DNA of 64,000 nucleotides from Paecilomyces variotii (Eukaryota), in assembly GCA_004022145.1 (NCBI GenBank), contig RCNU01000015.1. One strand, given 5' to 3'. Below the pieces are notes generated by a model, which was not told the DNA's origin, did no database searches, and saw only the letters and a program-made list of their open reading frames with translations. The translations under genes and the position numbers were made by a program. Shown in pieces: positions 34,259-56,871 of this stretch (position 1 is the first letter of the stretch; every line of letters starts with the position of its first letter).

Positions 34259-34759
34259 ATGTCCCAGTCAGGCAAGGAAGGAGAGAATTTGCCTGGCACG
34301 CCTTTCTTTGGAAGAGGGAATGAAGACTGGGAGTTGCAGTTCAGAAATCAAGTGGAAGCCCTGACCATTAACCAGCGGGACCAAGGTCAGAATCAAGGCC
34401 AGGGACATACCACAGTTATTTCGCGACCTGAATCAGACATTCGAGTCTTGCATCCAGTGTCGACATGGTCTTTCCCAATACAGCGACCGCCTTCCTTCTC
34501 GTGCGCGAGAGCAGGGAACCCTCGCAATATCACCGAAGGCGTCTGGATAGATAATGAGAGTCGAGCACGGATCGCCCCCAATCTTCACTCTCCTACGCAT
34601 ATTGGGCCATCACCGCTAGGAAACAGTTCTGACAACGTGAGAGGTGATGAGGATATGGAAATGCTGGCATCGATGATGGCAGCTGCGTTTCATGAGCAGC
34701 AGGATGCCACGAATGTCACAGGACCGTCCCAACGGGATATTGGCACACAAGCTCGTTGA
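34259..34759 (+). CDS. Hypothetical protein, 166 aa, probably disordered
   Basis: ATG-initiated ORF in an otherwise AT-richer intergenic region, TATAAA ~140 bp upstream; no motif recognised. Confidence 0.35.
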   Translation: MSQSGKEGENLPGTPFFGRGNEDWELQFRNQVEALTINQRDQGQNQGQGHTTVISRPESDIRVLHPVSTWSFPIQRPPSFSCARAGNPRNITEGVWIDNESRARIAPNLHSPTHIGPSPLGNSSDNVRGDEDMEMLASMMAAAFHEQQDATNVTGPSQRDIGTQAR

Positions 34760-35396
34760 CAGACCTATGGAAGTGGAAATTCGACAGCAGATGCTGATAG
34801 AAGATGTTCAGGCAGCTTAGGTCATAGATGTGGGAACTAAGGAAGGATCTGGTACTTACGGAAGGGGCTCTTCCAAGGAGTACTATCTTGTGAAATCGAT
34901 ATTTGCGTTGCCTTGTACCACTAGTATTAATTTTAATCAGTGTCTGTTCTCTTTATGTATTCACAGAATGTATTCTCCAATGGTGTCCAGATAATATGGA
35001 GGAATACATTCTGAGGATACAGGGAGCACAAGGATCTAATATGTAAATCTTTCAATGGAGGACAGAGAAGCCTTGAGGTCTCTGCAGATGTATGGTTAGT
35101 TTGCAACGAAGAGATGTTTGATATTAGAATCCTGGCAGTTGTGCTACAATAGCATTAGTTTGAAATATGGACACTGACTGACCCCCCAGTTATGGGACTT
35201 GCCGCTACATCCCTCAGGCTAGCCTCACCGACGCACGCGGTTTTCTTCTTCTTTGTTCCATCACTTAGCACACAAGACGCGTCGAGAACCCCAAGAAGAT
35301 CAACCGACAGTTCCTTTACAGAAGACCATCTCGTTTCTCTGCGTTGATCTCATGTAACTCGAATCTGGAATATCAGCGCGTCCGACTCTACCAAAT

Positions 35397-36579
35397 ATGA
35401 CACTCAGTCCTAGAGGTCGACTCGACCAGCTTCCAGCTGAGCTGCTTCACAAAATAGTCCGTTATCTCGACTTTTTGTCCTTGAGAGATCTGTCCAGCAC
35501 CAACAGGACCCTGCGAGATGTCGCTATCCCACGTCTTTTCGAATGCATTTCTGTGCCTTTCTCGGCCTCTGGCCTTGACATCCTGAAGGAGGTTGCCACT
35601 TCTCTTTTAGTGAAGGTGGTAAAGTCATTACAATTCAGGGTCCTTCCTCGTCTAAAAAATGGTATAGGTGTCCATAAGCCTACCTTGGTATCACTCGCTG
35701 ATCTGTCTAGTCTGTGCCAGGTATAAAGTGAGAACCTCACCAATGGAAAGAATCTACTCTCGGGAGACACACATTTTTTACGAAGAAAATGGATGGCTGC
35801 CTCAGAACACTACATATGAGAACGTTATTGAACGTATGAGCACGATCTGCGAAGAACAAGCAAAACTTATAGGGAACGACAGTGAGTTGTCATCATTAGT
35901 GACCGTTCTGCAACAGTTTTCGGCTGTCGAAGAATTGGACATGCGCTGGGGTACCTTCCCCGCGGACACCTGTGGGCTTGGTACTGTTCTCAAACTGTGT
36001 ATCGAGAAGCATGACTCGTGCTTCGAGCGGTTCATGGAAGTGGCTTCTAGGACGATTGGCCTTCGCTTGAAAGCAAATCCAATTACTTCCCTACAGGTTT
36101 CCGCTTGTCGAATGCTCCCTGGGTACGACTTTTCATGCCCAGTACGATATTTACAAGAGGCCTTTGCTTCAATTAGGAGTCTTCACATTCGGGCCCATGA
36201 TAGACTCCTTCACCTGCTGGCGTGTCAGGTAGATATGTCTGGGCTGAAATGTCTCAAGGTAACATTTGAAGCCCTTGCACTGGATATACTCGGCAAATTG
36301 TGCAAAAGGGCGGGAAAGACACTTGCCGTTTTACATATTCAGACCAATTTCCTCTGCTACAACGGACGCCGTTACGGAGGAACACCACCGTCTATTGTCT
36401 ACCACGGCCTGGACCGCCAAATAGTGATCTTTTTACACACGCTCGGGCAAGATATGTCTCTGGGAGAAGTGAGTGTTCGGATTGGAGGATACACAGAAGA
36501 ATACATGAGGCTGCTTGAATCTGTTCTTCGCAGAGAAGTTTCGGTATCTGATTGCGAGCCGTTCATCGAGGATCGGTGA
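35397..36579 (+). CDS. F-box domain protein with LRR-like C-terminal region
   Basis: N-terminal LDQLPAELLHKIVRYLDFLSLRDLSSTNRTLR matches the F-box pattern. Intron 35662-35710 joins the 35397 ORF to the 35668-36579 frame. LxxLxL-like repeats (ITSLQV, IRSLHI, LKCLKV, LAVLHI). Confidence 0.75.
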
Positions 36580-37262
36580 GGAAAGTGAAATGAAAGGGAC
36601 CTACGATGCAGAAGAAATAGCGCACCTGCTGAATAGATCCTTGCCTGGTTCCCACCTTGTTACTTTTGAAGATGTGTATTATTTATCAAATTGAGAACAG
36701 ACTCTACTTTTCTAATGACCCTGGTATTATTTTAGCCTGCTGGTGTGTAGAGTAAGAATTTTTTCGCGGATTAATGCTCTATATTGCCGGTGTATTTCTG
36801 GCATAGGCCCAATCTAACGACGAGGCGCTCGTCGAATCATTGTCAAAATAGACCATCACTATTAATTCGCTTATCAAAGTTCTATAGCTACTCTAAGCCT
36901 CTAGGACATCTACTTTATGGGTCTTTTTTGTTTAAAACTAAACCAAAATGATAGTTCCGTTTTGAAGCAAGCGGGAAGCTTACTCAATTACCAACTATAC
37001 GGGTCAAACCAGAGAGCATGGATGACTTTATATACCTTCCACAAGCTTCAACAGAGGCCAGGGCAGTATACAAATCAATCAATGAATTATGAAGCAGACC
37101 TACAATGTGCGCACGAAATGAGTCTAATAGCTGCCATATGCCAAGACTTAGTGATAATGGTCTTTGAGATCAGTACCAAATAGTCTGAATCTTCCATATC
37201 CGAATATAAGCGATGCATACCATAGACGATACTAGCACTAACAGGAGATGGAAATCAAGAGC

Positions 37263-39069
37263 TCACTCGGGCCCAATCGATTTCAATTGGACATATAAAC
37301 CATTAGCCGGCTTAATTGTGACTGCACCCGAAGGCACGACCCGATCCTCAGGCATGGCGAGCGTCCACTCGAACTGGCCAACCATGGCAGCAATCAGACA
37401 ACGCAACTCTGCCCTGGAGAAATTTTGGCCGATGCAGCCCCGGGGCCCGCGCAGAAAAGTCAGACTGCCGGAATTCCCAGCGGCGGTTCCAGCGTTTGAT
37501 ATTGGTCGCTTCCCACCAGGACTGATCCAGCGATCTGGCCGAAAGTCGCTGGCATCGGCTCCCCAGAATTCTGGGGACCGATTGATCAGCCACGGCGGTA
37601 TCAAGATCCATGTGCCCTTGGGGATTGGACGACTGCAGAGATGCGTATCAACGGCAGCGACGCGCAGTAGTATCGGTGCGGCCGGGTAGAGTCGTAATGC
37701 TTCCTCTACAACACCATGGAGGATGGGGAGGCTTTCGAGGATGGAGCCAAGATCCTTGTGTTGGATCGACACAGAGGAGGAACTGTTCAAATGAGAGGAG
37801 AGTGCCTGGCGAACCTCTTCACGTAGGGCTGTCTGCCAATTGGGATGGGTGGCCAGGAGGTAGCATGCCCAAGTAAATGCCAAAGACGTGGTTTCGTGAC
37901 TGGAGAGGGGAGTTTATAATCAGATAACAGTTCTTGGGACAGGGAGTCGGCTCAGCTCAACTGTCCCGTTCTTTGGCACTTGAGAGTGATAGCTAAATCA
38001 CGACAATGTATGATCAAGAAGCAACTTACCCAGCAACCAAGTACGTGAGCAGTTGGTCCACGAGTTCCGAGTCAGAGAAATTATCTGACCGAATGAGTAA
38101 AGAGAGAATGTCGAAATTGTCGTCCCCTTTCCCAACGATAGCTTCGCGTTTCTCCCGGACCAGATCCTCTGCAATGCGTCTAATCGACTCGATATTCTCC
38201 CTGAAGGTCACATTGAGACTCCAGAAAGGCAAGCGTTGAACCATTTGGTAGGAAAAGCTTGAGCACAGGAAGGCGTACACTATCTTTTCTAACGATGGCT
38301 CAGAGATATATTCATAAGCCTTGAAGAGCTTATCATCTGAGTTCTTGAGCATATTGAATTCACGACCGAGACCAGCAATGCCGATGACGTCTAGAGACGC
38401 CCTGGTTGCCCAAGGACAAATGTCTACTGTGCCCATCGAATCGGCGGCTGTTGACTGTTGTTGAACTTCATCTCTCAATAAGCGGGTGAGGGTTAGTGCC
38501 TTAGTCCACATCATGGGGTAGAGGTCCTGGAGAGCCCGTGAGCTAAAAGCCGGTCGTGTATTCTTGCGAATGAACTTGTGTCGTTCACCTTCGGCGAAGA
38601 ATTGTCCATTCTCCCCCAGAATGAGACCAAGAAATTTGCGGACGACTGGGGGCTTGATGAAATCGTAAGGGTGATCGGTAAGCACCTCAGCTATGGAATC
38701 AGGCTTGGTTAGAAGAAGCTGCGTTTTTCCTAGACCTCGCAGGGCTATAACGCTGTCGTTGGAAAACCTCTTCGCTATGGTCACATATCTTTCAGCCGGT
38801 ATGACTGTAGTCGTAAGTCGGAACCAGAGCAACTTCAAACCATTCACGCTCGAAGGACCTGGAAAGCTGCGCAATGGGTCGACGAAGACTGGGTATATCA
38901 TCAGACGGTATATCAGCCAGGTCGTATAGTTCACGGCAAAGATGAGGATTATAATGGATGAAAGCGACATCTTTCGGATGATGTCTGGAAGATAGCTGGA
39001 TAGGGCTCCCCTGGCCACAAGCAGCACCTCAAGCACCGCGGCAAACGTAAAGACCTGTAGTGCCACCAT
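37263..39069 (-). CDS. Cytochrome P450 monooxygenase (558 aa)
   Basis: N-terminal membrane anchor; I-helix AGHETT formed across intron 38029-37900; EALR (ExxR), FRPDRW and heme-ligand motif FLRGPRGCIG. Confidence 0.95.
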
Positions 39070-39865
39070 GACAACAACTTCAGCGTAATGGTATTCTTGG
39101 ATGCCGATGAAAGCCCAGTGACAATATTGATGGAACAGAAGAGCCAAAGGTACGAATTGACTCGGAGCCACTACCCAGTGGACGGCTTTGTTGCACTCAC
39201 ACAGCCTTATATTCGTTCACACGCGTGACTATGGTGGTACACCAAAGCCATTCAGGATTATGGCGCAGCGAAGAAAGAACAAATACTCCTAGATAAGTCC
39301 AGATCCCAGGTTTGGGGGCTTGAAGTAATCTTTCCAGCTATGAGACATTATTATGTATGCCTTTTCGGTTATAACCTTATCTGGTAACTTCCGAGGAGAG
39401 TAATACAGGACAATTTGTCTCGATATCACCGGAAACCCCCGCTCGGAGGAAACGATAGAAATACATTCGTGGAGCATCAGATTCTGTATAAGCCGCATGT
39501 AGTGTCAGGTAAAAATCCTTTTTCTTTGTTTCTATGTTTCTTTCATGTTTTTCCGAGGAGGGCAGCGGGAGGGTGAGAGTTATGTTCGCACTCGTCTAGT
39601 CTAAACTTGTTATTGGTGTATGGGTGCTAGCTATGGAAAGTCCTCACTGAGCTTCTGTAACAACCTGCCCCTTGATACTCTTTTTACAGAATTAGGGATA
39701 TCTGCAATCTAACATTGTTGGTTGCGTGACTGCAGCCCTATTCATTCCAGTTAGTACCGTAAGTATCGCCTGCTTTAAGATTGACAACTAGAGACCAGTT
39801 TCTTTATCAGATAGTTCAACAGCCCCAGCAAGCAAACCGCAGAGCAAGATGCAGCCACAATGAAA

Positions 39866-41353
39866 TCATGCGAGGAGAAAAGCATATGGTCCGAAGCCCT
39901 CGCCTTCTAGTAAAAATGGCCATTCATCCTCGAACAGACTCACAATGAACTCGATGCCACCGCTTCTCTTCCGTGGCAGTATGTAACAGGCCGGTACTTT
40001 GAAACGGTTGCGCATACTCATTAATGGACGAGAACCTTCCGCTCGACCACCGTTGCCGAAGAACTTATCACCGAACGACGAGGCCTCGTCACCAGGAACC
40101 ATCAGCATTGATGACATCAACCAGTTGCCCTCAAGAGTTGCATAGCGTGGTCGCTGGATGTGATTATAATCGTGCATCTCTCGTAGTAGCATATAACCGT
40201 CCATCATGGTGGTGTGATCGATCTTCGCAGCGCTTGTACGAATGGCCTGCGCTACTGCGGCGATGCTTCCTTCCAATGTACCTTCAACAAAGACACAAAG
40301 CGGCAGCGTAGGTCGATGATGGTAGATAAGGTTGCCAACATACGTTGGTGGCACCGACATGGTCTGCGAAAAGTCTGGCCGAGCATCGACCGGCACCTGG
40401 ATTTCAAAAGGTGCATTAGGATCGACATCACGCCCTTGTGCCGCTATTGCTGCTGCCCGAGCTTTGATGAGACCGCGCCAAATACAGGCCATGAGAACGT
40501 CGTTCCCTGAGACGTCGACTGTGCATATTTTCCGAAGTGATGCAAAAGCCACCGGTGACATGTAGAACAACTTCGAGGTCATGACTCGCTCGTGTTGAAC
40601 GGCGTTAGACGACCTTTGCCCGTTCTGACCAGGATGAGACAGCTTTTCTGCATTTGGAGGATCGAGTCCAATCGCATACCAAGGCTCTGGGCCAACATCC
40701 TGAGCGGAATGACCTGTTCTTTCCTTCTTCCAGACACTATCAAGTAGGGTTCTGTCCCAGCTCTCGGGTGGAAGCGTGAGGGCAGGATCGCCAGAAACTG
40801 AGGCCAATTTTCTACATTGGTCTGCCCATAGCTTGTAGAAGATTGCCATACCTGTCGCGTCACACGCCGCATGGAGCACAGACACACACAGGAGACAGGC
40901 ACCTGGCATGAAATTTGCTTGAGCCGCCACGATCTCGGCTCCGGCGTCGAGATCTACCCCTCGATACGTCACCCAAATCAAGTCTTCATCAGCGAAAGCA
41001 TCCAGAGGAAAGCCTCTTGCCTTGAGGTCAGCATAAGTAGAAGACGTCGTCTGCTTGAGCTCATTGTAACGAAGCTGATAAGGGGGCGGTGCATCAGCAG
41101 TAATTGGGGCGTAACGGATTTCGAGCCGTCCAGGACGCCAACCAGGGGTATCCGGGGCCTGATGGTACAGCTTTCCATTCAGCCAGGGCACTTGCAGGAA
41201 GGTGCGCCGCAGTCCTTCTTGTAGACGTGCAAATACTGCTTCCCAACTGACACCGGACTTGATACTGAAGTAAACGGAGCCTGGAGGGTACACTGGTGGA
41301 GACAAGTGGTCTAGTGGACCAAGAGGAAGGTGTTGGATAGGTGTTGAGCTCAT
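39866..41353 (-). CDS. BAHD/transferase-family O-acyltransferase (trichothecene 3-O-acetyltransferase/Tri101-like)
   Basis: LGPLDH N-terminus, VPWLNGKL, AQANFMPGACLLCVSVLHAACDATG (HxxxD), VSGNDVLMACIWR, VPVDAR, TYVGNL, CYILPRK; intronless. Confidence 0.9.
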   Translation of the reverse strand: MSSTPIQHLPLGPLDHLSPPVYPPGSVYFSIKSGVSWEAVFARLQEGLRRTFLQVPWLNGKLYHQAPDTPGWRPGRLEIRYAPITADAPPPYQLRYNELKQTTSSTYADLKARGFPLDAFADEDLIWVTYRGVDLDAGAEIVAAQANFMPGACLLCVSVLHAACDATGMAIFYKLWADQCRKLASVSGDPALTLPPESWDRTLLDSVWKKERTGHSAQDVGPEPWYAIGLDPPNAEKLSHPGQNGQRSSNAVQHERVMTSKLFYMSPVAFASLRKICTVDVSGNDVLMACIWRGLIKARAAAIAAQGRDVDPNAPFEIQVPVDARPDFSQTMSVPPTYVGNLIYHHRPTLPLCVFVEGTLEGSIAAVAQAIRTSAAKIDHTTMMDGYMLLREMHDYNHIQRPRYATLEGNWLMSSMLMVPGDEASSFGDKFFGNGGRAEGSRPLMSMRNRFKVPACYILPRKRSGGIEFIVSLFEDEWPFLLEGEGFGPYAFLLA

Positions 41354-42166
41354 GTTCACCGTCCCGTCCCTTTTCAACTTCAATGAAAAAATTCTTAAGC
41401 ACTCGAGACTGACGGAAAGATAGGGAACCTAGGAGTTGACGAGGATCGCAAGAGTCTCGCCATTTGCCTGGGTCAAATTTTACCACTCCTGACAGGTCAG
41501 GACTCTGAGCATCTGGTTATTATACTCATCTTATCTTAAGTGCATTTTGCTTGATTGTATATACATAGAGCGAAGGAAGTTTGAGTCTTCGGAACTTACC
41601 AAGACGGGGCAAGACCGTGTTGCACGATATACCAAACCGCCATACTTACAGTGTGGATGATAGACTGTGTATTACATATTATGTCCTAGTCTAACTTAGC
41701 TTTCTTCCACAACAGTAGCTGCAGGGCATGGGTTGCAATGAGGGGCTATCCCGAGATAACACTCTAGTCCATCATTCCCAGATCATACTTACAAGGGCAT
41801 AAACATATCCGAATATGGTAAATCAGCTTGGCACCATATTTAAACGTCTTCGAATTGGCCTGAAATGTAGTACCCGTCAGTTGGGGTTCGGGCGTACTAG
41901 GGAGCAGACGTACTTCACGTAATCTCCGTCGGGACAAAGTACACTGACAAGTCTGCTACAGGTTCTATCGAATAAGAATCATACGCATAGGTAAGCGCTA
42001 ACTGTACTGCTTTACAGCGTCACGGAAGATATACCATTCAATAACGTGTATAGCTTGTCTCAATTGTTAAAGAATCGGTAATATATCAGCTTCATGCCTC
42101 TGACCTCGCCATATCTTCAGCAATCTGCATCAAAAAGAACACTCAGAACTGACGCACGAGAAGGAA

Positions 42167-43586
42167 ATGGTCATGTTTGGTGTTTTGCGATGGGACCAGA
42201 CAACCAGAAATCACAGTCACGTTGAGCTTTCCAGTGAGAAAGGAAACGATGCTCGCGGTTATGTTCTCATGGCATGTGATCGGTGCCGCGCGCGAAAGGT
42301 ATGTAATTATCCAATATACTGGTGCTTGATGGGACGCCCTGCCGTGATGGTATTTTTATGACTCTGATTCATACAACCGGGCTGACAGATCACCAATTCT
42401 ACAGCTCAAATGCAACGGAAACAAGAACGGTTGCGAAAGGTGCCAATCTATGTCCCCACAAAGCATCTGCACCTACACAAGGACCAGCCGGACTACAGCA
42501 GATCGGAAAAGGTCGTACCTGCAATCTATGCCACTGACACCAGAAGAGCGCTGCTTTCCAGAGGAAAAACGATCAAGAAATCTTCAGAAATCGATAGGAA
42601 ATGATATCGATGATATCGCGGCTCATCGCGGGCTTGACTCCCCCAACTCATCACCATTTACAACCGCCGGTGTCGAGAACACACCACACCCGGAGTCCTC
42701 TTCTCTTTTCTCGGAACTTTCGTGGGAAACAGTGCTCGATGATTTTCTTGGGTCAGACGAATCAGACCAGATCTCGGCGAGCCCATTACAGCATGGACTG
42801 GTTGCAGAAAGGGGCTTTCCGTACGCGGCGGAATCTCATACCCTCAATCTTCCGTTGACTGCAAACGTAGTCTGGCACTGCGATGCAGGAATTACTATTC
42901 ATGACTCCCAGACCCAAGATCAGATGATACCTGAAGGCGACGGAGGTTCTAGAAACACAGATCTTACTGACAGCCAAGCGATAATAGATGCGGACAGCAA
43001 GACCCATTGCAGCTGTCTCGACACTATGGTGCGGCTGCTGGAAGACGTGGATGTAAATACGAACTATGACAGAGAGCGGTTTGAGTTCGATACGAGTCTC
43101 ATGTGCATGGCTCAGGGAACTAAGACATGTTCTGGGTTGCTGACGTGCGCCCACTGCAACGCGTGCGTTGACCACGCTATGCTCGTTGCAAGCATTGCGC
43201 AACAGCTTGGTACCTTGGCCAAAAAACTCTCAGATAGGCTGGTCCAAACATATCCTTCGGAAGGGACACTGGACCAGCAACGACACTGCTGTAATCTCCT
43301 CCGGACTTCAAAGCCACTCTCTGTTGATGGAAAGGAGAGGCAACGGGAAGACGCTATGATGCCGGAGCACATGGGGATTTCTCTGGGGCGGTACAAAATC
43401 GAGTCGCCTCAGGTCAATTTTCGTCTTGTATCTGAACTGCTGTTCCTGTACCTGATGGAATTCCAAACTCTGCTGGCAACCATGAAAGCACGCATCGCGC
43501 CAGAACGAGGGGCCTGGCGGTTGGTCGACCAAGCTGAGAATATGATCGCAAAGCGTCGCCGGATAGTCGAGCAATTGAAAATATGA
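42167..43586 (+). CDS. Zn(II)2Cys6 pathway-specific transcription factor with AflR-like C-terminal region
   Basis: ACDRCRARK|intron 42299-42403|LKCNGNKNGCERCQSMSPQSICTY gives CX2CX6CX6CX2CX8C; C-terminal CSCLDTMVRLLE...LLTCAHC segment. Confidence 0.9.
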
Positions 43587-43852
43587 GCAATTCCCAGCCT
43601 CGCAATGTCAAAAGATTCAAAAACAATAGACCCTTTACTTGGTTTATCCCTAGTAAGGTTGTTAGTTCGGAGCTTTGAATGCCTAACTCATCCGCCCAAG
43701 CTAAATTGAGCGAGCAATTTTCTCAGAGATAGAACGTTTACACGGAGCAATATATTAGGTACTCGGTGGGAGCCTGGAGGAGCCTTAACTTTGTTTTTTT
43801 AAGTGCTTATATGAAAGACGCTAAGCTCTAGGACTTCAACCGGTTTTTGGCT

Positions 43853-43869
43853 GTATATATATATATATA
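43853..43869. repeat. (TA)n microsatellite between the convergent TF and PKS genes
   Basis: About 8 TA units. Confidence 0.7.
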
Positions 43870-44062
43870 GCGTGTAACGGCCCTCTTTAGATCTGATAAT
43901 AAAGGCTCGAACCTCGTTCATCTGCTTGTCTGAGAAACCGAGTCATACATATGAGATTTCCCGAGTATGTCTGGAATTGCTCGGAAAAATGACTGCAAGT
44001 GATAAATCCACTACCAACGACGAAGTTGTTCAAAATCTAAACCGAAACTCTTCACCTTTCTC

Positions 44063-47000
44063 TCAACTGGAAACTTCCCCATTAACATCTGCTTTCTCTG
44101 GCTCTCCATTCGAGACATTCTCCTCCTCCGGGACTCCATTGATAACATTCTCTGATTCTCCATTGGTAGCCGCTAATTTCGAAGCACAGAACTCGCTCTT
44201 GGTCGCTAGCAGGGAACCAAACTCAACGAGGGACGCGCTTTGAAGGATTTCAAAGACAGAAACCTTCGCGCGAATAGTGCTGCTTAGCCAATTTCGCAAT
44301 TCCACTGCAACAAGGGAGTCGACACCATAGCGTGCCAGGGGCAGGCTAACGTCAATCTCTTGTGCTGATATGTTAAAGATTACTGCAAGCTTGGCCGCAA
44401 GAGCATCCACGAGATGAGCTGCAGCTTCCTCTAAGGTGATGCCCGGGCTGGATAGAGCGCGGACCAGCGCAGCCGTGGCCTCTCCTTCACCAGAATCGGA
44501 TGCTGAGCTCCTGGTCCGTGAGCGCGAGTTCGCCAGCTGAAGAGTGCCAAGACGCCGATCCTTCACCATGGCACTCTCCCACATCGCGGGCATCTGCTCT
44601 GTAATGCCAATGATCACTTGGCTACTGGCAGGTGACGCCGCTCGCAATGGCTCACGAATAGCGGCCTCGACAAGGCGTAGCACCTGAGGGACCTCCATAC
44701 AGTATAGATGCAGCTTCTCAAAACGCTTACGAATGTGATCGTCACCACGATTCTCTTGATCTGCGACGTATCCCACAGTACGGACGACTCCCAAATCCAG
44801 CGTGACAGCGGGCTGACCTTTTCGCGTGCGGTACCTCGCCAATGCGTCCTGGAAGGCATTCCCAGCTGCGTAGTTAGACTGGGATGTGTGACCTAACACG
44901 CCGAGTAAGGACGACAGCATGATGAAGAAGTCCAGATTGGGCAGGTGCTTGTGCAAGTTGATGCTGCCCACAGTCTTGGGCCGCACAACATGGACCCATT
45001 GATCATACTGCATGCGTTCGAGAACAGTGTCATCCAGGACCATGGCACCATTCACGACGCCCCGAATAGGCGGCATGCCCGCATCAGAGCACTCGGCAAG
45101 AAATTTAAGAAAGCTCTTCTCGTCGGCGACATCACAGTCGCGAATCACAACATTACAACCACACCTCTCACCCTCGTCCCGGAGTCGCTGAGCAGCTGGA
45201 TGCGAAGTTGCATTTCGGGACGTCAGTAACACATTTCTAGCACCGGTCTTTGTGATAATCCATTCAGCGATTGCACTGCCAACCCCGGTCAACCCACCGA
45301 CAACGAGATAAGTGGCGTCGATACGTCTTAATGAAATTGGACGGGGTCGTGAGGTGACCTGTTTGTGCAAAACGTTAGCAATCATGGTCGGTATATGACT
45401 TGGACGTAGCAGCGGGCCAAAGACAAATGGGTGTTGGCGCAGATTTACCTTGACAAGGTCTCCAGCGCGGGGAACCAGGATCAGTTTGCCCATATGTGTG
45501 CCTCCTTGCATTTGACGCATACCCTTTTCGATCTCTGAGATGGAGAACGGCGTGATGGGACTGACTGGCTTATGGCCGGTCTTTACCTGTCGCTCGTTAC
45601 AGATGCGGACGCTCTCTGTGAGGGCCGCGAGATTCAATGGTCCATTAAATTCATGAAGTTGAAGAAGATCAACACCCGCATACATTGCGCAGCGTCGAAA
45701 CGGGGTCATTTCGAGGTGTCTACCCGCCTCAAGGTCCATCTTTCCGACTTCGATGAATCGGCCGAATCTGGCAATGCAATCCCATGTCGCTTTTAACATG
45801 GCTCCTGATAGCGAATTGACCACAACATCGACTCCCTTGCCATTGGTTGCAGCCATGATTGCTGGTGCGAAGCTTGTGTCTCTGCTTGAGAGAATCATGT
45901 CCGGGTGTATACCATATTCCTTCATCAGAAGATCTCGTTTAGCTCTGGAACTGCAGGTAGCAAAAACCTCGGCGCCGACATGCTGTGCCAACACTACGCA
46001 GGCCTGGCCAAAGCCTCCAGCGGCTGCGTGGACCAGCACCGACTCGCCCTTTTGCAGCCTCGCGATATGGTAAAGAGAGTGATAGGCTGTTGCATAGGCG
46101 GTCGGGATTGACGCTGCATCTTCGAAAGACATATCGTCGGGTAACTTGGCCACGCTTGTCCAGTAGGTGCGCGAAATACTCGCATATCGACCTAGGCTCA
46201 AACTTACAACCCTGTCACCGATCTGAAGACCGCTCTTCTCGGTGTTGGGACCTAGTCGAGTCACAACGCCAGAGCATTCATGTCCTATAACGGTCTCGTC
46301 TAACTGACCCAGCGCAACAAGGACGTCGCGGAAGTTCAAGCCGTACGCCTTTGCCTCAATCTCAACCATACCGTCAGGAACGTCGGATTCCGCCAAATCT
46401 GGCATCTCAGTGAAATGTAGATCACTCAAAAGACCCGTGCTAGAGGTCTCCCAGACCAGCGGGCGACCAGGTTGGTGGAATGGTTGGAGCTCGGGCTCAG
46501 GATCAATTTGCTTGGCGCTGGCTATCCGACTCTGAGACTTGTCCATGAAAAGTCTTGGTACATGCAGCATCGAATCCTTGACAGAATATTCACATTCAAT
46601 ACTGTCATCAGCCGTCTGATTCTCGATCCCGGCGTTGAAGCTCTGTACGAGGACATGGATGACGTGGGGAATATTGTCACTCGCCCATGCCTTACCGTTA
46701 TGCTCGAAGTCCAGGTGGACATAGCGCTTGCTTCGATCTTCCACTCTCAAAGTCCTTAGGAGACCTTGACTCAGTGCAGATGATGGATTCGTGGCATCCA
46801 TTAGGCCCCCACAGCTCAACCATAGAACCCCTCGGCTGTTGACGAGGAGATTCTGCAATCTTGCGAAGGCAGCTTCGTCTATTCCATCCACGAACGGATT
46901 GTTCATCTCTGCAGTAAATATACAGATCTTATCTTGCCAATGATTGGGTTGATCTATATCTAGGCTCTCAATCGAGGGAGAGATCTTCGTGAACGCATGG

Positions 47001-50000
47001 ATCTGATCGACAAATTGTGATAACCATTCCTGAGGGGGACGGTCTTTGGAATATACGATGGAAAGTGGACCCATCAACGAGAACTGTTCTGTCGTGCTCG
47101 TAGCAGTGGACAGGATTGTGCTCGACGATTGAAATTCCTTCTCCTGATAGTCGGGTATCTCAAAATCGACACCGCTGAAACCTGTCTTGCGGAGCACCCG
47201 GTCCCAGACGTCGAGCGCTGCGTTAGGACTCGTCTTGCGATCTGGTTCCTCTCCTAGCCACCAGCCAGGAAGGGTACCGAAGGACATCTGTGTATCAAGA
47301 CGGTCTTGCGTGGATTCAATGAGCAGCAGCTTCCCACCCGGCTTGAGCAGTTTCCGAACGTTTGATAATGTCTTGGACAGATTTTTGGTGGCGTGGAGCA
47401 CCAGGGCCGCTACTATCAAGTCATAATGGCCGGCTTTGAAGCCCTGCTCGACAGGGTCGTCCTCAATGTTCAACTGCTTGAAATCCATCATTCCTTGCCA
47501 GGCCGCAAACGTCTCACGTGCAGCTTGAAAAAACCCTTGCGAGATATCAGTAAAGGTATAGTGACCGAGCAGGGATCCTCCAAACCCATCCTTAACGCCT
47601 CTGGAGCCAAATGCTTCCAGCACCATCTTTGTTGCAGCTCCAGTACCTGCCCCGACCTCCAGGACGTTCGCTCCTGGCTGCTTCACGGCATATCGCTCCA
47701 TCAGGGCTCTCACGTGCGTGCCGACACGTGCGACAACTACGCTATGGTCCCTATAGTACTGGTTCAACAACCCTCCCTGCATCATCAGCTCGAGCGGAGT
47801 GACCTCGCCCCTTACGATAGCTGCCAGCTTGGCGCCGACTCTTACGAGCAGTTGGTCGGTTGGTGACCCAACTGCAAGCTCGTCCGCAAGCATCTGCTTG
47901 ATGCCTCGTGTCGCTTTGGACCATGTTTCACTGCCAGTCCGCAATTCACCGCATTTGCCAGATTCCACAATCTTTTTCATCCAATCATAAAACAATTTGT
48001 GGTGCCATTTCCAGGAGTCTTGATTGGGAGGCCCAGCCGCTTCGAGCTCACAGACAGCATCGTTGATGAAATTATACGATGCTCGAACACGCTTTCTCTC
48101 TTGTTCAGCCTCATCTTCGGCCAATGGGATCATCAAAGACTTTCGGAAATCTTCTGGAACGTGGTGTAATATGTCCTGCTCCCAACAGAGCTTGGAACAT
48201 ATTCCCGACGGCTCTGCATTATCCCCTGCGTCATTCCAGTCACGAGGGACGGCCTGGCAGAAGAAATCTTGCATTTCGAAGACTGAGTCTGATTCATTAG
48301 CATCGTCACCTTCTTTGTCATTCACAACCTTGACATTCGAGACAATGCCCCGTTTGTCGAGACTGATCAGCTCTGTGAAGGATTGCAGCTTGTCACCACC
48401 ATTTCGACCAAGGTTTACTGGTACGAACATGGTGCGAATCGACCGGGGAAGGACCATTGAGCCTGCCGTTTGATCTTTAGGTAAGCTACTGTACGTTGTC
48501 TGGAAGATAGAATCGAGCGTCGTTGGATGCAGGACATAGTGATTGGCTTTGCTGATTGGTGATGCGATGTCTGCAACCCGAAACTTGGTAAAGGCTTTGT
48601 TTCCTGCCGCATGACTGTCCTCCAAATTCCGGAAGGTGTCTCCATGGTTTATACCCATCTTGTTAAGACTGTCAAATAGCGATGCAATGTCGACGTCGGT
48701 CACTTCGGATGTTTCGAATTTTAGATAGGAGTCTCGGTTTGGTGGTTTTGATTCCCTTGTTGTAGCAACCTTGACTTGAGTTCCTGTCTCGGCCATGACA
48801 AATCCCTTACAGTTGTCTACCCAGAGATCGCCAGCTCCCAGAGAACAGACATCGAATTCATACCATCCTGAGCGCTCGAGATCCGTATCCCTACAACGAC
48901 GCAAGAAGATCTGTACCTCCACTCCGACCATAGACTCTTGGATCACTAGCGCGTTCGTGATATTAACATCACGCAATCGGTAACCCCAGATTGTCTCCTC
49001 CGATTCATCGGTCAGGAGACGTATGGCCTCAATGGCCATGGCGACATAGCCAGCACCGGGTAGCACAACTTTTCCGTCGACCTTGTGGTCTCCGAGCCAC
49101 CCCATTTCTGACAGGCGCAAGAAGTTTCTCCATGTGGGCGCGCTGCTGGTGGCGGTGGCTAGAGGACTGCCGAGCAGTTCATGTGGTAAGAACTTTCTGT
49201 GCCGTAGTTCTTTACTTATCCTCGGCTCATTCCAATATTTGACTGTATGATTCCAGGGATATGATGGAAGACCAGTGAGAAATGTGGGCTTTTCGTGGCC
49301 CAGCGGGAAATTCACCGGTTTCAGGTTCAGCGGATAACCTCGATGCAGTAGCTCGCACACGAGCTCTTGCATGGTTTCAACCGCATCGATCGGCCTTTTA
49401 AGACAAGAGAAATATGGAAGTTCGACGCTTGGTTCTCTGACTTTGAGGATTTCTCTTATCGGACCTGACAAGGTGCTGTGTGCTCCAATCTCAATAAGCA
49501 GATCCACATCCGGAGTACCACCTATTGAGTTCGAATCAAAGCACATACTTTCCAAAGCCTGATGGAAAAGTACAGGCTTTGTAAGATTATCAACCCAATG
49601 GGAAGGAGACCTCAAGATGTCGATTGATGTGATGCGCTCACCGGTCACCGGTGATGAGAACACGACATTTCTTTTCCTCTGGCTATCCGTATCCGTCGAG
49701 GAAAGAATAGTCTCTAGTTCTCGAGTGTAGTCCTCGGCCATATGCAGCATATGATGAGAGTGGTATGCCATTGGTACGTTTAGTTTCCTGTTGAAGACGC
49801 CGTCTTTTTCTAGCCGAGAATGGACCTCAGCAAGGGCTTCGGTATCACCTGAGAGCGTGACACTATTCGGACTGTTGACACAAGCCACAACTACGCGACC
49901 GCCTGCATCATTAACTGGAAGGTACGCCTTGACATTTTCAGGTCCCAAACCAACGGTAAGCATCCCTCCGTCAAGGGTGGAGCGCTTTTGGTGCATTCGG

Positions 50001-52497
50001 GCAAGTTCACCGCGATAGTAGACAACGCCAAGAGCTTCTTTGAAAGATAATGCCCCAATTGCATAAGCAGCTGCAATCTCGCCGCTGGAATGGCTAGTCA
50101 CGGCCGAAGGAGTGATACCCCATGACTCAAGAAGGTCCACGAGACAAAGCTGGACAGCAACTGTCATGGGCTGAGAGAGATTGACCTCGGATACTCGAGT
50201 TGAAAGTTCGTCGCGCATCAATTCAGCTTCGAGCATGTCAGTTCAATACAAAAATAAACTATCATGAACGTTGACATACCACAGAGTGACCACGTTGCGC
50301 CATATTCATTCTTTAGAATCTTGTCGGCCTCGCAGATCCGCGATTCAACCAGAGGATAATCCCGGATGAGTTCCCTTGCCATGGCGTACCATTGCGCTCC
50401 CTGGCCATTGAAAACAAAGCCAAGACGTCGTACTGGTCGTCTAGTCGAATGATATGGTCTGATCGACGGCGATTCTAGGCGCTCACAAAGCTGTTGCAGG
50501 TCTTTGGCAGGGACAGAGATCACCCAGGGAAGTAGTGATCGCCGCTCTGCCAGCGTGTATATGAGGTTTTCCGAGAGAATAGAGTTGGTTTTGTCATTGT
50601 CCTCCTTGATCAACTCACGGATGTGTGAAGCAAGTCGTTTCGCCATCATTTTGGCCGCCACTGAATCTTTGGCGCTGAGGATGTAGACGCGAGATCGGTT
50701 CAGGATCTGTTGATGCCCATCTTCGAACTTTTCTCTCTCACAATCCATTGCCGGAGCCCGCTCCATGATGATGTGTGCGTTGGTTCCGCCATAGCCAAAA
50801 TTGTTGATTGAAGCTCGGAAAGGTTTATCCTCTGGCCAAGGTGTCAAAGCTGTCGAGACCTGCAGATTCCATTCGTCCAGATGGATGTTTTGGTGTGTTG
50901 TCTCGTAATTCAGATTGGGAGGAATCAATCCATACTTCAGAGCGAAGCCGGTCTTGATAACTGACGCGATACCGCTGACGGGTTCTGTATGGCCAATATT
51001 CGTCTTGACGGAACCGACAAGAAGGGGGCCAGAGTTCTGAACTTTGCGTCTCTGCCCAAAAGTTCTAGCCAAGGCTTCGGCCTCGATAGGGTCTCCAGCA
51101 GCGGTGCCGGTCATGTGGGCTTCAACGTATCCCGTTTCGGCGAGATCAAGACCAGCACGCTTATAGCAGTCCCGAATCAGCTTGATTTGGGCCTCCAGTG
51201 ACGGAGACGATATTGTGGGTGTATTTCCATCTTGATTCACACCGGTTTCTCGAATGATTGCGTGTACGTGATCGCCATCTCGCAACGCTGCACTCAACGG
51301 CTTCAGGATGAGCGCTGCAACGCCCTCACCACGTCCAAATCCCTGAGCTCGAGCGTCCCAAGCAAAGCATCTTCCATCAGGGCCGAGAACACTACCCGGG
51401 AATGTCAGCCATCATCTTCGAAAGTCAACGTGGGAGAGTTCGGAGAAGTTCAAATACCCCATGGTGGACATTCCAATGAACGAATCCTGATTCAAAAGCA
51501 AGTTTGAACCACCAATAATCGAGGTGTCTGACTCTCCGGACCAGATGCTTCGACAACCTTGATGAAGTGCCACCAGACCTGCTGAGCACCCGGTATCGAG
51601 CGGCATGCTTGGCCCGCGTAAGTCGTAGAAGTGGGAAATTCGATTTGCAAGCATAGCTGTGCCAGTTCCGAAGGCAGTCTGTGAGACAAGCTCAGGGTCT
51701 CTTGCCAGTATTTCATGGTAATCCTTGCTGAAACAGCCTGTGAATACCGAAGTATTCGAGCCAGCAATCTTCTGGAGTGGAATACCAGCTGTGGGTGACG
51801 ATGTTTTGGTTAGCGTTTGCCATGTCAAGCACTTAAATGAAAAGCACGAAACGAACCGTCATCCATTGATTCATAGACGACCTCAAGGAGGAGCCGGAGT
51901 TGAGGGTCCATCACCTGACAGATCACGACGAGTTAACATGCCATGTCCAATGCAAACAAGTTCGTCAGAAGAAGAAGAGATGGAAAGGAAACCGGACTCA
52001 CCCTCGCGATATTTTCTGACACTTGAAAGAACCCGGCATCAAACAGGGAAATATCCTCATCGAGGAAATAAGCACCCTTCACGTGAGTCTGTTGTGTCTA
52101 TCATTAGCCATGCAAAGGGCAATCTCTACCTGTAGCGTCTCCATCGAAGAGGAACAGTAGTTTCCTTGTGATGAGCCTCAGATCTGACAAGGTTGAGTTT
52201 TACCTTGCCCGCTCTCTGGGGATCCGGATGATACCAAGCGTCGGCATCAAAGCGCCGCGACGGAATGGGTGACCACGCATCTTTCCCAGCAGTACACAAT
52301 TCCCAAAGCTTGGATGGGTTGGTAGCCCCTCCAGCAAAGCGGCAGGCCATGCCAACGATGGCGATGGGGGTCTGCGCTGACGATGCCGTGCCATTGCTCT
52401 CCAATGTATCGTTGACTTGCTCATCTCCATTTGCCGTAGAATATCCAGTGACACCATCTGGTGTCAAATGGCTGTTTACCAGAGCTTCGACGACCAT
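44063..52497 (-). CDS. Highly reducing iterative type I polyketide synthase KS-AT-DH-cMT-ER-KR-ACP (~2651 aa, 7 exons)
   Basis: Exons 52497-52204, 52088-52002, 51914-51857, 51788-51458, 51391-50280, 50226-45449, 45358-44063 (7956 nt, in frame). KS DTGCSAG/EAHMTGT/NIGHTE; AT SHSSGE/AYHSHHM; DH HKVDGKVVLP/HPTTLD; cMT LEVGAGTG; ER HAAAGGFG; KR GGLTGVG/VLDD/YAAGN; ACP GVDSL. Confidence 0.97.
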
Positions 52498-53157
52498 GTT
52501 GCATAACCACGGCTTGCGTAAGTATTGGTTGCCAAGACCCTGACCTGGACCGGACTAGAGACTCTTGTTGCTCTTCATGAATCCTTCTGACAGGAAGACG
52601 ACTCTTATAATACCATAGCCTCCATTTCTGAGCTTTCGGATATTGCTAACTTCAGGGGGTCCTTTGCAATTGCTCATTGACCTGCCTTTCAGCACGCCTG
52701 CCAATTTTGGAATGGCCCTGTATCTATTGACCTTCTTACATATTCACATAATCTCGTGCTACCCTTGCTGTCCATCAGAGATGTTCGGATATTTCCAAAC
52801 TAAGCAAGTTCCGCATGGGATTGGTAACATCTCACGTAATGGTGAATGAAGCAATGTATGAACTGAACAGTAAGCAAAACACATGATCGAGACCATAATC
52901 CAGAGATGAATGAAAATGTGGTCAATATTGGTGTTGCACTGCATCTCAGACGGCAGGCGGTGCAAACAAAGAAACGCATAGTGAGACAGATAATCAATCA
53001 CACTCCAGGTTCATCTCGGGTGTAACCATTCCACATTACCTACCTTGCTCCTTTCCGGTTGATATTCTTGCCCTACTTACTATCGCTCAGTGTTAGGATC
53101 GATAATATCGCATTCAACTACGCTTTTTCACCGCGGATCAGAAAGTTCGTGGCCGCC

Positions 53158-55014
53158 ATGGCATCAGCTGTGGGTGGTTCGGAGCTTGAGAACAATGCTA
53201 CGCCAACCGATGAGACGACCAAGGTCGTTACGGCCATGGGGCCCAGGTCAGGGTCGTCACCACAGTTGACAGTGCAGGACGACGGAGAGAACTATCCCTC
53301 AGGCCCAAAATTCTGGCTGATTGGTGCTGCGCTGTGTCTTGGTGGCTTCCTCGTCTCATTTGTTAGAAACTCGTTCTTCATCTTTGTACATTTTGAAAAA
53401 GATGAGTGACTCACTAATCTAGGATAGCACCCTTCTCTCTACCGCAGTCCCCGTGATCTCTGATGAGTTTCACTCTCTTGGTGATATCGGATGGTATAGC
53501 AGCGTGTACTTCCTCGCCATGTGTACCCCTCAGATGGTTTTGGTGAAGCTGAACGGTCGATATCCAATCCGATGGAACTACGGTATTGCCATGGCGCTCT
53601 TCATCGCTGGCTCTGCCCTCTGTGGTGCTGCTCCGAACTCCCCTGTGCTGATCGCCGGGCGTGCTCTTGCTGGTCTAGGCTCCTCTGGTCTCCTGGCGTC
53701 GAGCGCTGCCATGGTTCCTTTTCTGGCTCCTCCGTCAGAACGGCCGACCTTGTTTGGCTTGTTCGCAGGGGCAATGGGACTTGGCGTTGGTAGCGGTCCC
53801 CTAATCGGTGGCGCGTTGACTGAAAAAGTCACCTGGCGATGGAACTTCTATATGAATATCCCCATCGGCGCCGTCATCTACGCCATCTTCTATCTCACCG
53901 TACACCCCCAAAAGCCTGACTACTCCACGCCATGGCGAAGTTTCCTACGGACCCTCGATCTCCTTGGTCTGGCCACCTTCGCGCCCGCTACTGCGTGTCT
54001 GCTCATCGCCCTCCAGTGGGGAGGAACAACATATCCATGGGCTGACGTCCGCGTAATCGTTCTGCTCGTTTTGTCTGGCGTCCTGGCAGTCATATTTCTC
54101 GTAGTTGAGTTCTGGCTCGGAGACAGTGCCATGCTCCCGCGCCGCATCTTCTCCAAACGCAACGTTTGGTGTGCTGTCTGGTTCTGTTTCTGCGGTAATG
54201 GAGCTGCTGTCGTGTTGACATACTATTTACCCATGTAAGGCTCTGACTCATAAATCATCTCGTCGTGATCAAGTTGCACCCAATGCTGACCGTTTCTAGC
54301 TGGTTTCAAGGGGTCCAAGGAGACACTCCAGTCCTATCAGGGGTACATACTCTCCCACTCGTAGTCACGACGGTGTTCACCACGATCTTGGGTGGCATTC
54401 TCATCACTCTTTTCGGACACGTCGGACCCTTCATGGTTGCCGGATCCATCTTCATGGCCGTTGGAGCCGGCCTCTTAACCACTCTTGACAGCAACACCAG
54501 TGTCAGTAAATGGATCGGCTACCAGATCATCTATGCGTTAGGAGCCGCTTTCGGCAGACAATGTCCGAGTGTCTGCTTACAAAATCTGCTCCCAGAGAAA
54601 GATGCCCCCCTCGCCTACACTCTGGTCACTTTCATCTCGTTCGTTGCTGGGTAAGCTGTTATCTCAATTTCCATGCCTCCTTCTTCTTCCTCCCTTCTTC
54701 GTCTTCATCTTGCTCACACATCCCTCAAACACAGCGCAATCTTCGTCTCCACAGCGCAAGCTCTCTTTTCCAACCGTCTCGTCTCAGGTCTAGAAGGACT
54801 CGGAATGTCCAAAGCAGAAGCCACCGCATCCTTAGCTAAAGGTGTCATGTCCTTGACCCAGGGGCTGTCAGATGACGCCAAGACGGCGGTTCTGCACGTC
54901 CTGAATACGTCAATCGTGAACGCATGGCGCCTCCCAGTGGCCCTGTCGTGTATGAGCATCGTGGGGGCGCTGGTGTTGGAGCATCAGAAAGTGAAGGGGA
55001 AGCCGAATATCTAG
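53158..55014 (+). CDS. MFS drug/toxin efflux transporter (DHA2, AflT/GliA-like)
   Basis: ISDEFHSLGDIGWYSSVY, GSALCGAAPNS, LIAGRALAGLG, GPLIGGALTEKVTWRWNFYMNIPIG, LQWGGTTYPW, KWIGYQII. First intron 53362-53422, further introns near 54235-54299 and 54651-54734. Divergent from the PKS. Confidence 0.93.
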
Positions 55015-55893: not shown

Positions 55894-56871
55894 ATGATGA
55901 AAGCCATCGTAATCCACGAGCCCGGCGCTCCATCCGTGCTCAAACTCGAACAACGATCCATCCCCCGTCCCAGTCCAGGAGAAGTCCTCATCCGCGTGAA
56001 AGCCTTCGGACTGAACCGCTCTGAGATGTGCACGCGTCTAGGCCAGTCCCCCAGCGTGAAATTTCCCCGGATCCTCGGTATCGAAGCCGTCGGAACGGTT
56101 GAGCAGGCGCCCGGGAACGAAGATACGATCCCGTCCGGCGCGACGGCCGTGACGTGCATGGGTGGGATGGGCCGCATGTTCGATGGTGGGTATGCGGAGT
56201 ATACGTGTGTGCCGGCGAAGCAGGTGCAGGTTGTCAAGACGAAGTTATCGTGGGAGGTCCTGGGGGCGTTGCCGGAGATGATGCAGACGGCATGGGGGTC
56301 GTTGTTCACGGCGTTGAATCTGCAGAAGGGCGAGAGGCTGCTTATTCGCGGGGGAACGTCGTCGGTAGGGTTTGCTGCGGCTGGGATTGCGAAGCAGCAT
56401 GGAGCAATTGTGGCGTCGACGAGTCGCAAGAAGGAGCGGGAAGGGGTGGTTCGTGAGTATGGTGCTGATGAGTTCTTTGTGGATGATGGTGCGATTGCGA
56501 AGCAGCTTGAAGGCCAGGAAGAGAGGAAGTTCGATAAGGTGCTGGAGCTCGTCGGGACAGTGACGCTAGCGGATTCGCTTGCGTCGACGAAGAAGGGCGG
56601 TACGGTCTGCGTCACGGGGATCGTGGGCAATTCGTGGTCTATGGAGAAGTTCTCTCCGATGGAGATTATTCCTAAGGCGACGAAGCTGACGGTGTATGGA
56701 GGGACTGAAGAGGATCTGAAGACTATGCCGTTTGATGAGCTGGCTGAGCAGATCGAGCATGGCAAGTTGAAGGTCAAGATCGGGAAGGTGTTTAAGATGG
56801 ATCAAATCGTGGAGGCGCATCGTTGTATGGATGAGAGCAGGGCGGAGGGGAAAATTGTTGTTTTGACTTGA
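55894..56871 (+). CDS. MDR-superfamily NADPH-dependent quinone oxidoreductase-like / zinc-binding dehydrogenase-family protein
   Basis: [75 protein letters not shown]; intronless. Confidence 0.9.

What the first reader, a model, noticed from the sequence alone, without database searches (positions are those of the whole stretch)
37263..55014. Compact HR-PKS gene cluster (P450 + BAHD acyltransferase + Zn2Cys6 TF + PKS + MFS) that I cannot match to a known pathway
Seen: five contiguous, apparently intact genes in ~18 kb, with two divergent promoter pairs (acyltransferase/TF, PKS/MFS). Known: a synthase, tailoring enzymes, an in-cluster regulator and an exporter together form a self-contained fungal biosynthetic gene cluster. 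Inference: it makes an exported, C-methylated, reduced and P450-oxidised polyketide ester. I do not recognise this exact gene set as a characterised cluster, but I could not search.
Basis: partly seen in the sequence, partly recalled or inferred. Interest (0 to 1): 0.8.

Follow-up and report, generated by a model that had tools for sequence, protein, structure and literature searches.

The report
Orphan polyketide cluster in Paecilomyces mould
A food-spoilage mould carries five intact, neighbouring genes that probably make and export one still unidentified fatty-acid-like ester; such orphan clusters are common in fungi, but this one has a synthase and transferase that travel together across distant species and a shared candidate control sequence that makes it easy to test.

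Summary
Five intact genes of Paecilomyces variotii (P450, TRI101/BAHD-fold transferase, Zn2Cys6 regulator, 2651-aa KS-AT-DH-cMT-ER-KR-ACP synthase, MFS) lie between housekeeping genes, keep their catalytic motifs, and three of them show spliced RNA joints. I could not link the cluster to a characterised pathway, but MIBiG was not available. Added here: (1) the synthase and transferase are a co-inherited pair across many ascomycetes (Mantel r 0.73 on 23 pairs), and the P. variotii pair is sister to Apodospora's inside Sordariomycetes, which suggests horizontal gain. (2) A 12-bp CGG site, TCGGAWNTTWCC, occurs once in each of the three promoter regions and in 7 of 17 related loci (few are independent). 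(3) One relative pairs the two enzymes with a diterpene cyclase; here no scaffold gene is present, so the acceptor is unknown. (4) P. variotii strains carry two old haplotypes. Most likely the transferase unloads a methyl-branched chain onto a hydroxyl acceptor, the P450 hydroxylates, and the MFS exports; all chemistry is inferred. Verdict: new member of a known kind, modest interest.

The parts
37263..39069 (-). Cytochrome P450, 558 aa, exons 39069-38030 and 37899-37263; AGHETT, ExxR, PDRW and FxxGxRxCxG motifs present
   Evidence: intron 37900-38029 spliced in runs X1 and X4
39383..39394 (-). Candidate regulator site TCGGAWNTTWCC, 314 bp upstream of the P450 start
39866..41353 (-). TRI101/BAHD-fold transferase, 495 aa, one exon, HxxxD kept (H161, D165)
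41589..41600 (+). Candidate regulator site in the transferase/TF divergent region (236 bp from the transferase start)
42167..43586 (+). Zn2Cys6 transcription factor, 437 aa, exons 42167-42298 and 42405-43586
   Evidence: no splice joint among the 15 of 24 joints listed
44063..52497 (-). Highly reducing PKS, 2651 aa, KS-AT-DH-cMT-ER-KR-ACP, no terminal release domain; exons 52497-52204, 52088-52002, 51914-51857, 51788-51458, 51391-50280, 50226-45449, 45358-44063
   Evidence: in-frame intron 45359-45448 spliced in run X1
49186..49256 (+). GT..AG intron of an antisense transcript inside the PKS gene (one contig, one run)
52785..52796 (+). Candidate regulator site in the PKS/MFS divergent region (288 bp from the PKS start, 362 bp from the MFS start)
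53158..55014 (+). MFS exporter, 548 aa, exons 53158-53361, 53423-54234, 54300-54650, 54735-55014
   Evidence: introns 2 (X1) and 3 (X1, X7) spliced
53346..53414 (-). GT..AG intron of a minus-strand transcript overlapping the MFS 5' end (antisense RNA or long PKS leader)
   Evidence: (X1, X4)

Best explanation
A working, pathway-regulated secondary-metabolite cluster, probably gained from a Sordariomycete. The Zn2Cys6 protein binds the shared 12-bp site and switches on the other genes (inferred). The HR-PKS builds a methyl-branched, partly or fully reduced acyl chain on its ACP (domains and catalytic residues shown; chain unknown). It has no release domain, and its co-inherited BAHD-fold partner unloads the chain onto a hydroxyl acceptor to give an ester (inferred). 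Because no scaffold gene lies in the cluster, the acceptor is either a common cell metabolite (a polyol or glycerol) or a second chain that the P450 has hydroxylated (inferred). The P450 oxidises an alkyl carbon (inferred) and the MFS exports the product (inferred).
For: Intact models and motifs. Splice joints for P450, PKS and MFS. PKS and transferase accessions lie 1-5 loci apart in P. variotii, Apodospora, Clonostachys, A. clavatus, A. alliaceus, A. homomorphus and others; 20 of 78 outside transferase hits (20 of 52 on contigs of 15 kb or more) share a contig length with a PKS hit; trees of the pair are nearly congruent, Mantel r 0.73, 0 of 5000 permutations. TRI101 fold, TM 0.74, HxxxD kept. 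In L022 the pair lies with a polyprenyl synthase, two P450s and a copalyl-diphosphate-synthase-like cyclase, as expected of an acyl-donor module. The P450 beside a 60%-identical transferase in L035 is sister to the window's P450 (support 0.96, 146 residues); a TF relative flanks the transferase in Apodospora and L025. One of the three nearest own-genome P450s with a long match (40-42%) lies in the sphingofungin-type cluster, whose myriocin counterpart MyrH is proposed to oxidise the chain. Shared promoter site.
Against: No metabolite, enzyme assay or deletion is known to me for this cluster or any close relative. No Apodospora P450 was among the 92 hits, so the P450 is not a fixed member. 27 of 79 transferase relatives lack the HxxxD histidine, so the family's job need not be acyl transfer. 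The PKS 5' introns are unspliced in the listed contigs, antisense introns occur, and X1 and X4 are only guessed to be RNA; co-expression is not shown. The motif is absent from L025, the locus with a TF relative next to the transferase, and only two of its outside hits are independent of its derivation. Old paralogy with losses could mimic transfer; no Apodospora housekeeping control was available.
Confidence: 0.5

Rival explanations
1. The chain leaves the PKS as a free acid or lactone (transferase acting as a hydrolase, or release by a PKS domain); the P450 hydroxylates it, and the transferase, if it acylates at all, adds an acetyl group from acetyl-CoA as TRI101 does.
For: Nearest solved structures are TRI101 acetyl-CoA transferases. 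An acyltransferase-like hydrolase and KS-catalysed release are named as fungal HR-PKS release routes in PMC12291444 (passages). No scaffold gene in the window.
Against: The tight co-inheritance with one PKS clade in clusters of very different gene content fits recognition of the PKS-bound chain better than recognition of a shared downstream alcohol (inference). Identity to TRI101 is only 19-20%.
Confidence: 0.22
2. The pair supplies a side chain for a scaffold made at another locus (a terpene or aromatic polyketide), or for a foreign compound.
For: L022 and the Pseudogymnoascus model P0016 place a close PKS beside a diterpene cyclase. The genome has terpene-synthase-family matches (5, one of them broken by stops).
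Against: The 12-bp site is no commoner genome-wide than its reversed control (65 against 64). Four other site-bearing places were read (C10, two on C12, C7) and showed no biosynthetic core by eye; the other sites were not read. The cluster has its own exporter and regulator.
Confidence: 0.13
3. It is the source of variotin or viriditin, a methylated, hydroxylated dodecatrienoyl chain on a pyrrolidine ring (structures recalled): PKS for the chain, P450 for the hydroxyl, transferase for N-acylation.
For: The enzyme set fits the recalled structure; viriditins are listed for P. variotii (PMC8228970, passage).
Against: Variotin was consistent in P. formosus, not in P. variotii s.s. (PMC2789542, passages), whereas no P. 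lecythidis or 'No. 5' record appeared for transferase, P450 or TF. The genome has three PKS-NRPS hybrids with reductase-type ends, and the C12 one has cMT, a trans-ER, a P450 and a regulator. A PKS-NRPS origin of viriditin is recalled; that paper was not held.
Confidence: 0.05
4. A relic: a transferred module that lost its scaffold genes and now makes nothing useful.
For: No scaffold gene; antisense transcripts; PKS annotated in pieces in several strains, and one strain (DTO271G3) shows only a 573-aa piece with no transferase, P450 or TF listed.
Against: Both haplotypes, 6-11% apart, keep full-length frames; no RIP-like composition; promoter sites intact; the split models bracket the antisense intron and look like a prediction artefact.
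Confidence: 0.1

Closest known systems
Uncharacterised Apodospora peruviana locus (KAK3315921 PKS, KAK3315923 transferase, KAK3315924 Zn2Cys6)
   Same: Closest relative outside Paecilomyces: PKS 71%, transferase 70%, TF 35% over part; sister in both trees.
   Different: Gene order differs, KAK3315922 was not seen, no P450 relative found; product unknown.
Alternaria alternata pksH cluster (PMC3391263, passages read)
   Same: HR-PKS of the same KS-motif clade (44%; a cluster member is named PksH and one carries both primer-derived peptides) with a P450, a transferase and an F-box gene.
   Different: Too distant to share a product; its own product was not identified there; its partner genes were not compared.
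HR-PKS plus trans-acyltransferase side-chain systems: lovastatin LovF/LovD, rasfonin Rsf3 (PMC10290801, passages); chaetoviridin CazF/CazE and sordarin SdnO (recalled)
   Same: Release-domain-less methylating HR-PKS whose chain is esterified by a separate enzyme; several hits are auto-named after LovF or compactin diketide synthase.
   Different: Those clusters encode the acceptor (second PKS or terpene cyclase); this one does not. Rsf3 is described as LovD-like; this enzyme has the TRI101 fold. No sequence comparison with these enzymes could be run.
TRI101 trichothecene 3-O-acetyltransferase (PDB 2zba, 2rkv)
   Same: Fold (TM 0.74) and HxxxD.
   Different: 19-20% identity; no canonical DFGWG; tied to a PKS instead of an acetyl-CoA detoxification role.
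Sphingofungin/myriocin cluster family (PMC13612406, passages)
   Same: HR-PKS, transferase, MFS and a P450 40% identical to this one occur in the genome's own cluster of that type on C1.
   Different: The window lacks the PLP-dependent release enzyme and the PhyH dioxygenase; it is a separate locus.

Membership tests
Fungal highly reducing iterative PKS | KS-AT-DH-(cMT)-ER-KR-ACP in one chain | tested here: met
Fungal highly reducing iterative PKS | Catalytic motifs of each domain present | tested here: met
   15 of 15 motif patterns found; expected motif forms are recalled. KS variants DTGCS/EAHMTGT are clade-typical (EAHMTGT in 53 of 56 long hits)
Fungal highly reducing iterative PKS | Activity of cMT and ER, chain length | not testable with these tools
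   needs expression
BAHD/TRI101 acyltransferases | Two-domain CAT-like fold | tested here: met
   model pLDDT 87.8; Foldseek 2zba E 1e-25, TM 0.74
BAHD/TRI101 acyltransferases | HxxxD catalytic motif | tested here: met
   HAACD, 161-165
BAHD/TRI101 acyltransferases | DFGWG-type C-terminal motif (recalled) | tested here: inconclusive
   only an FGD word near the expected place in the alignment; not checked by superposition
Scaffold-acylating clusters (azaphilone, sordarin, lovastatin type) | Acceptor-making gene (NR-PKS, second HR-PKS or terpene cyclase) in the cluster | tested here: not met
   none in the window; next 19 kb downstream read by eye
Rasfonin cluster | Two HR-PKSs, three P450s, FSH hydrolase, LovD-like transferase | tested here: not met
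Sphingofungin/myriocin clusters | PLP-dependent oxoamine synthase beside the PKS | tested here: not met
   found on C1 instead; paper passages
Viriditoxin cluster | Non-reducing PKS VdtA with neighbouring vdtX | tested here: not met
   two adjacent PKS matches lie on C6, read as that cluster; the window's PKS is reducing
Any MIBiG cluster | Same gene set with high PKS identity | not testable with these tools
   no MIBiG library; no characterised name among 120 PKS, 79 transferase and 92 P450 hits, where only about a quarter of proteins carry names

The most novel reading that the evidence does not exclude
The EAHMTGT-clade HR-PKSs and this transferase family form one dedicated, mobile 'synthase plus unloader' module with its own conserved regulator site, which fungi plug into different scaffolds. 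In P. variotii it works with no scaffold gene and esterifies a primary metabolite or its own hydroxylated chain, and the two haplotypes are balanced chemotypes. In a third of the family the catalytic histidine is gone while the pairing stays, which would point to an undescribed release chemistry.
Probability: 0.2. Interest if true: 0.6.

Novelty: new member of a known kind. Interest (0 to 1): 0.33.

Why it matters
P. variotii spoils food, grows in fermented foods and occasionally infects people, and it has few PKS genes (ten by BLAST in PMC6600887, of which three were tested there). An expressed cluster with no known product is a gap in what it secretes; nine runs on record as RNA from food or food-fermentation metagenomes hold part of the stretch (only two were laid, and one looked like DNA). 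The cluster is a minimal five-gene case for learning what a widespread, uncharacterised PKS-transferase pair does, and the 12-bp site gives a direct handle on its regulator. It is not a new kind of system.

Tried and rejected
Variotin/viriditin source: lowered (see rivals). ADH gene 55894-56871 as trans-ER of the cluster: rejected for now; no 12-bp site, no haplotype split (96.3-98.2%), 27-28% to the PKS ER. F-box gene 35358-36579 as member: no support beyond an F-box in the Alternaria cluster. Mobile-element borders: no long repeat in 29-60 kb; GC and GC3 like the flanks. Unlinked scaffold locus by motif: nothing in four places read; the terpene-family match near one of them lay in an unrelated frame. 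ACLA_061390 (tag recalled) proved to be a non-reducing PKS in PMC5635595; whether it neighbours the A. clavatus pair was not shown, so the azaphilone link is not claimed. Clonostachys pks22/pks29 (2490 and 2378 aa, other neighbours) do not fit the 2592-aa relative. PDB, Atlas and earlier-findings look-ups gave no functional name. A 55-row KS-AT tree did not finish and was not repeated; no tree with characterised PKSs exists here. Flanks of related contigs beyond 10 kb were not available. Papers PMC9114375, PMC12953777, PMC12824588 and PMC6300479 (passages) added nothing on this locus. No complex prediction was sent.
Full report
1. Observation. The window is a stretch of a 30.1-Mb fungal assembly. 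Its left half holds housekeeping genes (Tra1, PP2A B56, Tau95, ribokinase, MCM5, Vps54), its right end a zinc-type dehydrogenase, a GT34 and glycogen synthase. Between them lie the five genes of the finding. Exon models with GT..AG introns give open frames for all five; PKS, transferase and P450 equal annotated Paecilomyces variotii proteins, which gives the species. The PKS has KS-AT-DH-cMT-ER-KR-ACP, all 15 motif patterns I looked for, and no terminal release domain. The transferase model (pLDDT 87.8) matches TRI101 best (E 1e-25, TM 0.74, 20% identity) and keeps HxxxD. The P450 keeps its heme motif; the regulator has a Zn2Cys6 head.

2. Transcription. Of 24 runs listed, 18 hold part of 37200-47100, 9 of them on record as RNA. 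Four were laid, all as contigs. Among 15 of 24 joints shown are the P450 intron (X1, X4), the in-frame PKS intron 45359-45448 (X1), and MFS introns 2 (X1) and 3 (X1, X7). Against a simple picture: X1 and X4 are only guessed to be RNA, X2 is unspliced throughout and looks like DNA, the PKS 5' introns are unspliced in the listed contigs of X1 and X7, no TF joint is listed, the transferase has no intron, and three joints are introns of opposite-strand or non-coding transcripts. So three genes are transcribed somewhere; levels and co-expression are not shown.

3. Relatives. The PKS search listed the best 120 of 2265 hits among 8000 scored candidates: P. variotii 92%, Apodospora peruviana 71%, the rest 44-67% and scattered mainly over Sordario-, Leotio-, Eurotio-, Dothideo- and Lecanoromycetes (classes recalled). 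None bears the name of a characterised enzyme other than automatic labels (LovF, compactin diketide synthase). EAHMTGT occurs in 53 of 56 long hits, so the odd KS words mark a clade and are not damage. The transferase search gave 79 hits, Apodospora again first outside the species at 70%. 20 of the 78 outside hits share a contig length with a PKS hit (20 of 52 on contigs of 15 kb or more), and accession numbers or locus tags put the two genes 1-5 loci apart in Apodospora, Clonostachys, A. clavatus, A. alliaceus, A. homomorphus, Collariella, Xylaria grammica, Anthostomella and Apiospora. For 23 pairs (the second P. variotii haplotype left out) the two trees agree, Mantel r 0.73, 0 of 5000 permutations, largest 0.35; kinship alone gives some agreement, but both trees break the species tree in the same way. 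In both, P. variotii is sister to Apodospora (support 1.0) among Sordariomycetes; a clade with the A. alliaceus transferase is rejected (p-AU 1e-6). P. lecythidis (two records) and 'No. 5' share the ribokinase at 95-96% but are absent from the fully listed named members of the transferase cluster, the main P450 cluster and the TF cluster and from the hit lists; 7 of 22 named PKS members were not listed. Horizontal gain is the simplest reading; old paralogy with loss is not excluded.

4. Partners vary. In 17 metagenome loci the transferase has differing neighbours. L022 has two regulators, a polyprenyl synthase, two P450s, a copalyl-diphosphate-synthase-like cyclase and a PKS 64% identical in KS; L028 a P450 and an FSH1 hydrolase; L023 FAD oxidases; L025 a TF relative (32-50%) head to head with the transferase; L035 a P450 that is sister to the window's (0.96, 146 residues). 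The P450 search (92 hits) found 86% or more in six records (four named, all P. variotii; two unnamed), 44% at best over full length elsewhere, and no Apodospora protein. The pair therefore looks like a constant acyl-donor core with changing partners. The window has no scaffold gene, and other transferases of the genome are only 25-33% alike.

5. A shared promoter site. TTCGGWTAT, picked by eye, has 5 copies in 64 kb, all in or beside the cluster's non-coding DNA. In a test that allows for picking, 4 of 100 shuffles gave any 9-mer in all three promoters and 0 of 100 one with CGG. Comparison with L029, L035 and L036 led to TCGGAWNTTWCC: once in each promoter region and nowhere else in the window (0.12 expected, uncorrected), 65 in the genome against 64 for the reversed control, 7 of 17 related loci and 1 of 23 own-genome loci. 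Dropping the three loci used and three near-duplicates leaves 4 hits in 11 loci against a shuffle mean of 0.20 (0 of 300 reach 4); but L024 and L037 share L029's spacing and are close kin, so only L022 and L028 are independent, and L025 lacks the site. A CGG site fits a Zn2Cys6 protein (established knowledge); binding is untested.

6. Variation in the species. Against the window, ribokinase is 97.6-99.7% and the dehydrogenase 96.3-98.2% in 12 strains, without groups. The cluster splits: P450 93-97% (6 strains) or 89-90% (4), transferase 94-98% (6) or 89-91% (5), PKS 99.7-99.8% (5) or 94% (2 full-length). The second group is 97-99.8% alike within itself, and one P450 is equidistant from both. 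Two old haplotypes with recombination; balancing selection or introgression is inference.

7. How it most likely works. Shown: genes, domains, motifs, fold, some splicing, co-inheritance, shared site. Inferred: regulator activates through the site; PKS makes a methyl-branched reduced chain; the transferase unloads it onto a hydroxyl; the P450 oxidises an alkyl carbon (one of its three nearest paralogs with a long match, 40%, lies in the sphingofungin-type cluster); the MFS exports. I give this 0.5, hydrolytic release or acetylation 0.22, an unlinked scaffold 0.13, a relic 0.10, variotin/viriditin 0.05. 27 of 79 relatives lack the histidine (one more is gapped), a warning that the family's chemistry is open.

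8. What is known. Ten paper searches gave no paper on this locus; the library lacks most subscription journals, where much fungal biosynthesis is printed. I read passages of PMC2789542, PMC3391263, PMC5635595, PMC6600887, PMC13612406, PMC6177402, PMC8228970, PMC10290801, PMC6300479, PMC12824588, PMC9114375, PMC12953777, and passages plus the reference list of PMC12291444; no whole text and no supplements, which (for PMC6300479 and PMC6600887) may list this PKS. PMC6600887 tested VdtA, PvpP and VdtX only. Statements on CazF/CazE, sordarin, SphH, and variotin/viriditin structures are recalled. It works like HR-PKS/trans-acyltransferase systems; it is a member of none that I could test.

9. Verdict. 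Real, intact, uncharacterised as far as I could search; new member of a known kind; interest 0.33.

Noticed in passing
window 49186-49256 (+), 53346-53414 (-), 41965-42034 (-): Introns of antisense or long-leader transcripts inside the cluster; longest open frame across the first is 99 codons. The split PKS models of several strains (875 + 1650 aa) end and begin on either side of the first, which suggests an annotation artefact.
   Followed up: partly
transferase family, e.g. P0154, P0166, P0188, P0191, P0196: 27 of 79 relatives replace the HxxxD histidine by P, A, S or G; six of them form one clade that still sits with its PKS.
   Followed up: partly
L022:5479-21458 and P0016: Diterpene cyclase plus same-clade HR-PKS cluster; the Pseudogymnoascus model P0016 (3460 aa) joins cyclase and PKS in one protein, while L022 has stops between them, so probably a merged gene model.
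   Followed up: partly
window 41706-42131: Run X2 shows an inversion and a replaced stretch in the transferase/TF promoter region, about 4% divergence over P450-transferase and a 26-base deletion at 48393 in the PKS (one contig).
   Followed up: no
window 42167-42298: Several strain annotations give the TF as 352-391 aa, too short to hold this Zn2Cys6 exon plus exon 2; probably the first exon was missed.
   Followed up: partly
strain DTO271G3 (P0212, P0385, P0403): Only a 573-aa PKS piece is listed between the flanking genes, with no transferase, P450 or TF member: possibly a decayed cluster.
   Followed up: no
window 30183-36579: A 661-codon frame without Pfam match, a short frame at 34220-34759 that reads by eye like a regulator's tail, and an F-box gene lie between Vps54 and the P450.
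   Followed up: no
L013, L014, L038 (G000:C12 about 696-720 kb): PKS-NRPS with cMT and reductase end, trans-ER, P450, desaturase, SDR and regulator: a candidate for viriditin.
   Followed up: no
P0007 cluster: One PKS is 90% or more identical across A. clavatus, A. alliaceus, A. homomorphus, A. pseudotamarii, A. flavus AF70 and Penicillium antarcticum, which suggests recent transfers of a histidine-less pair.
   Followed up: no
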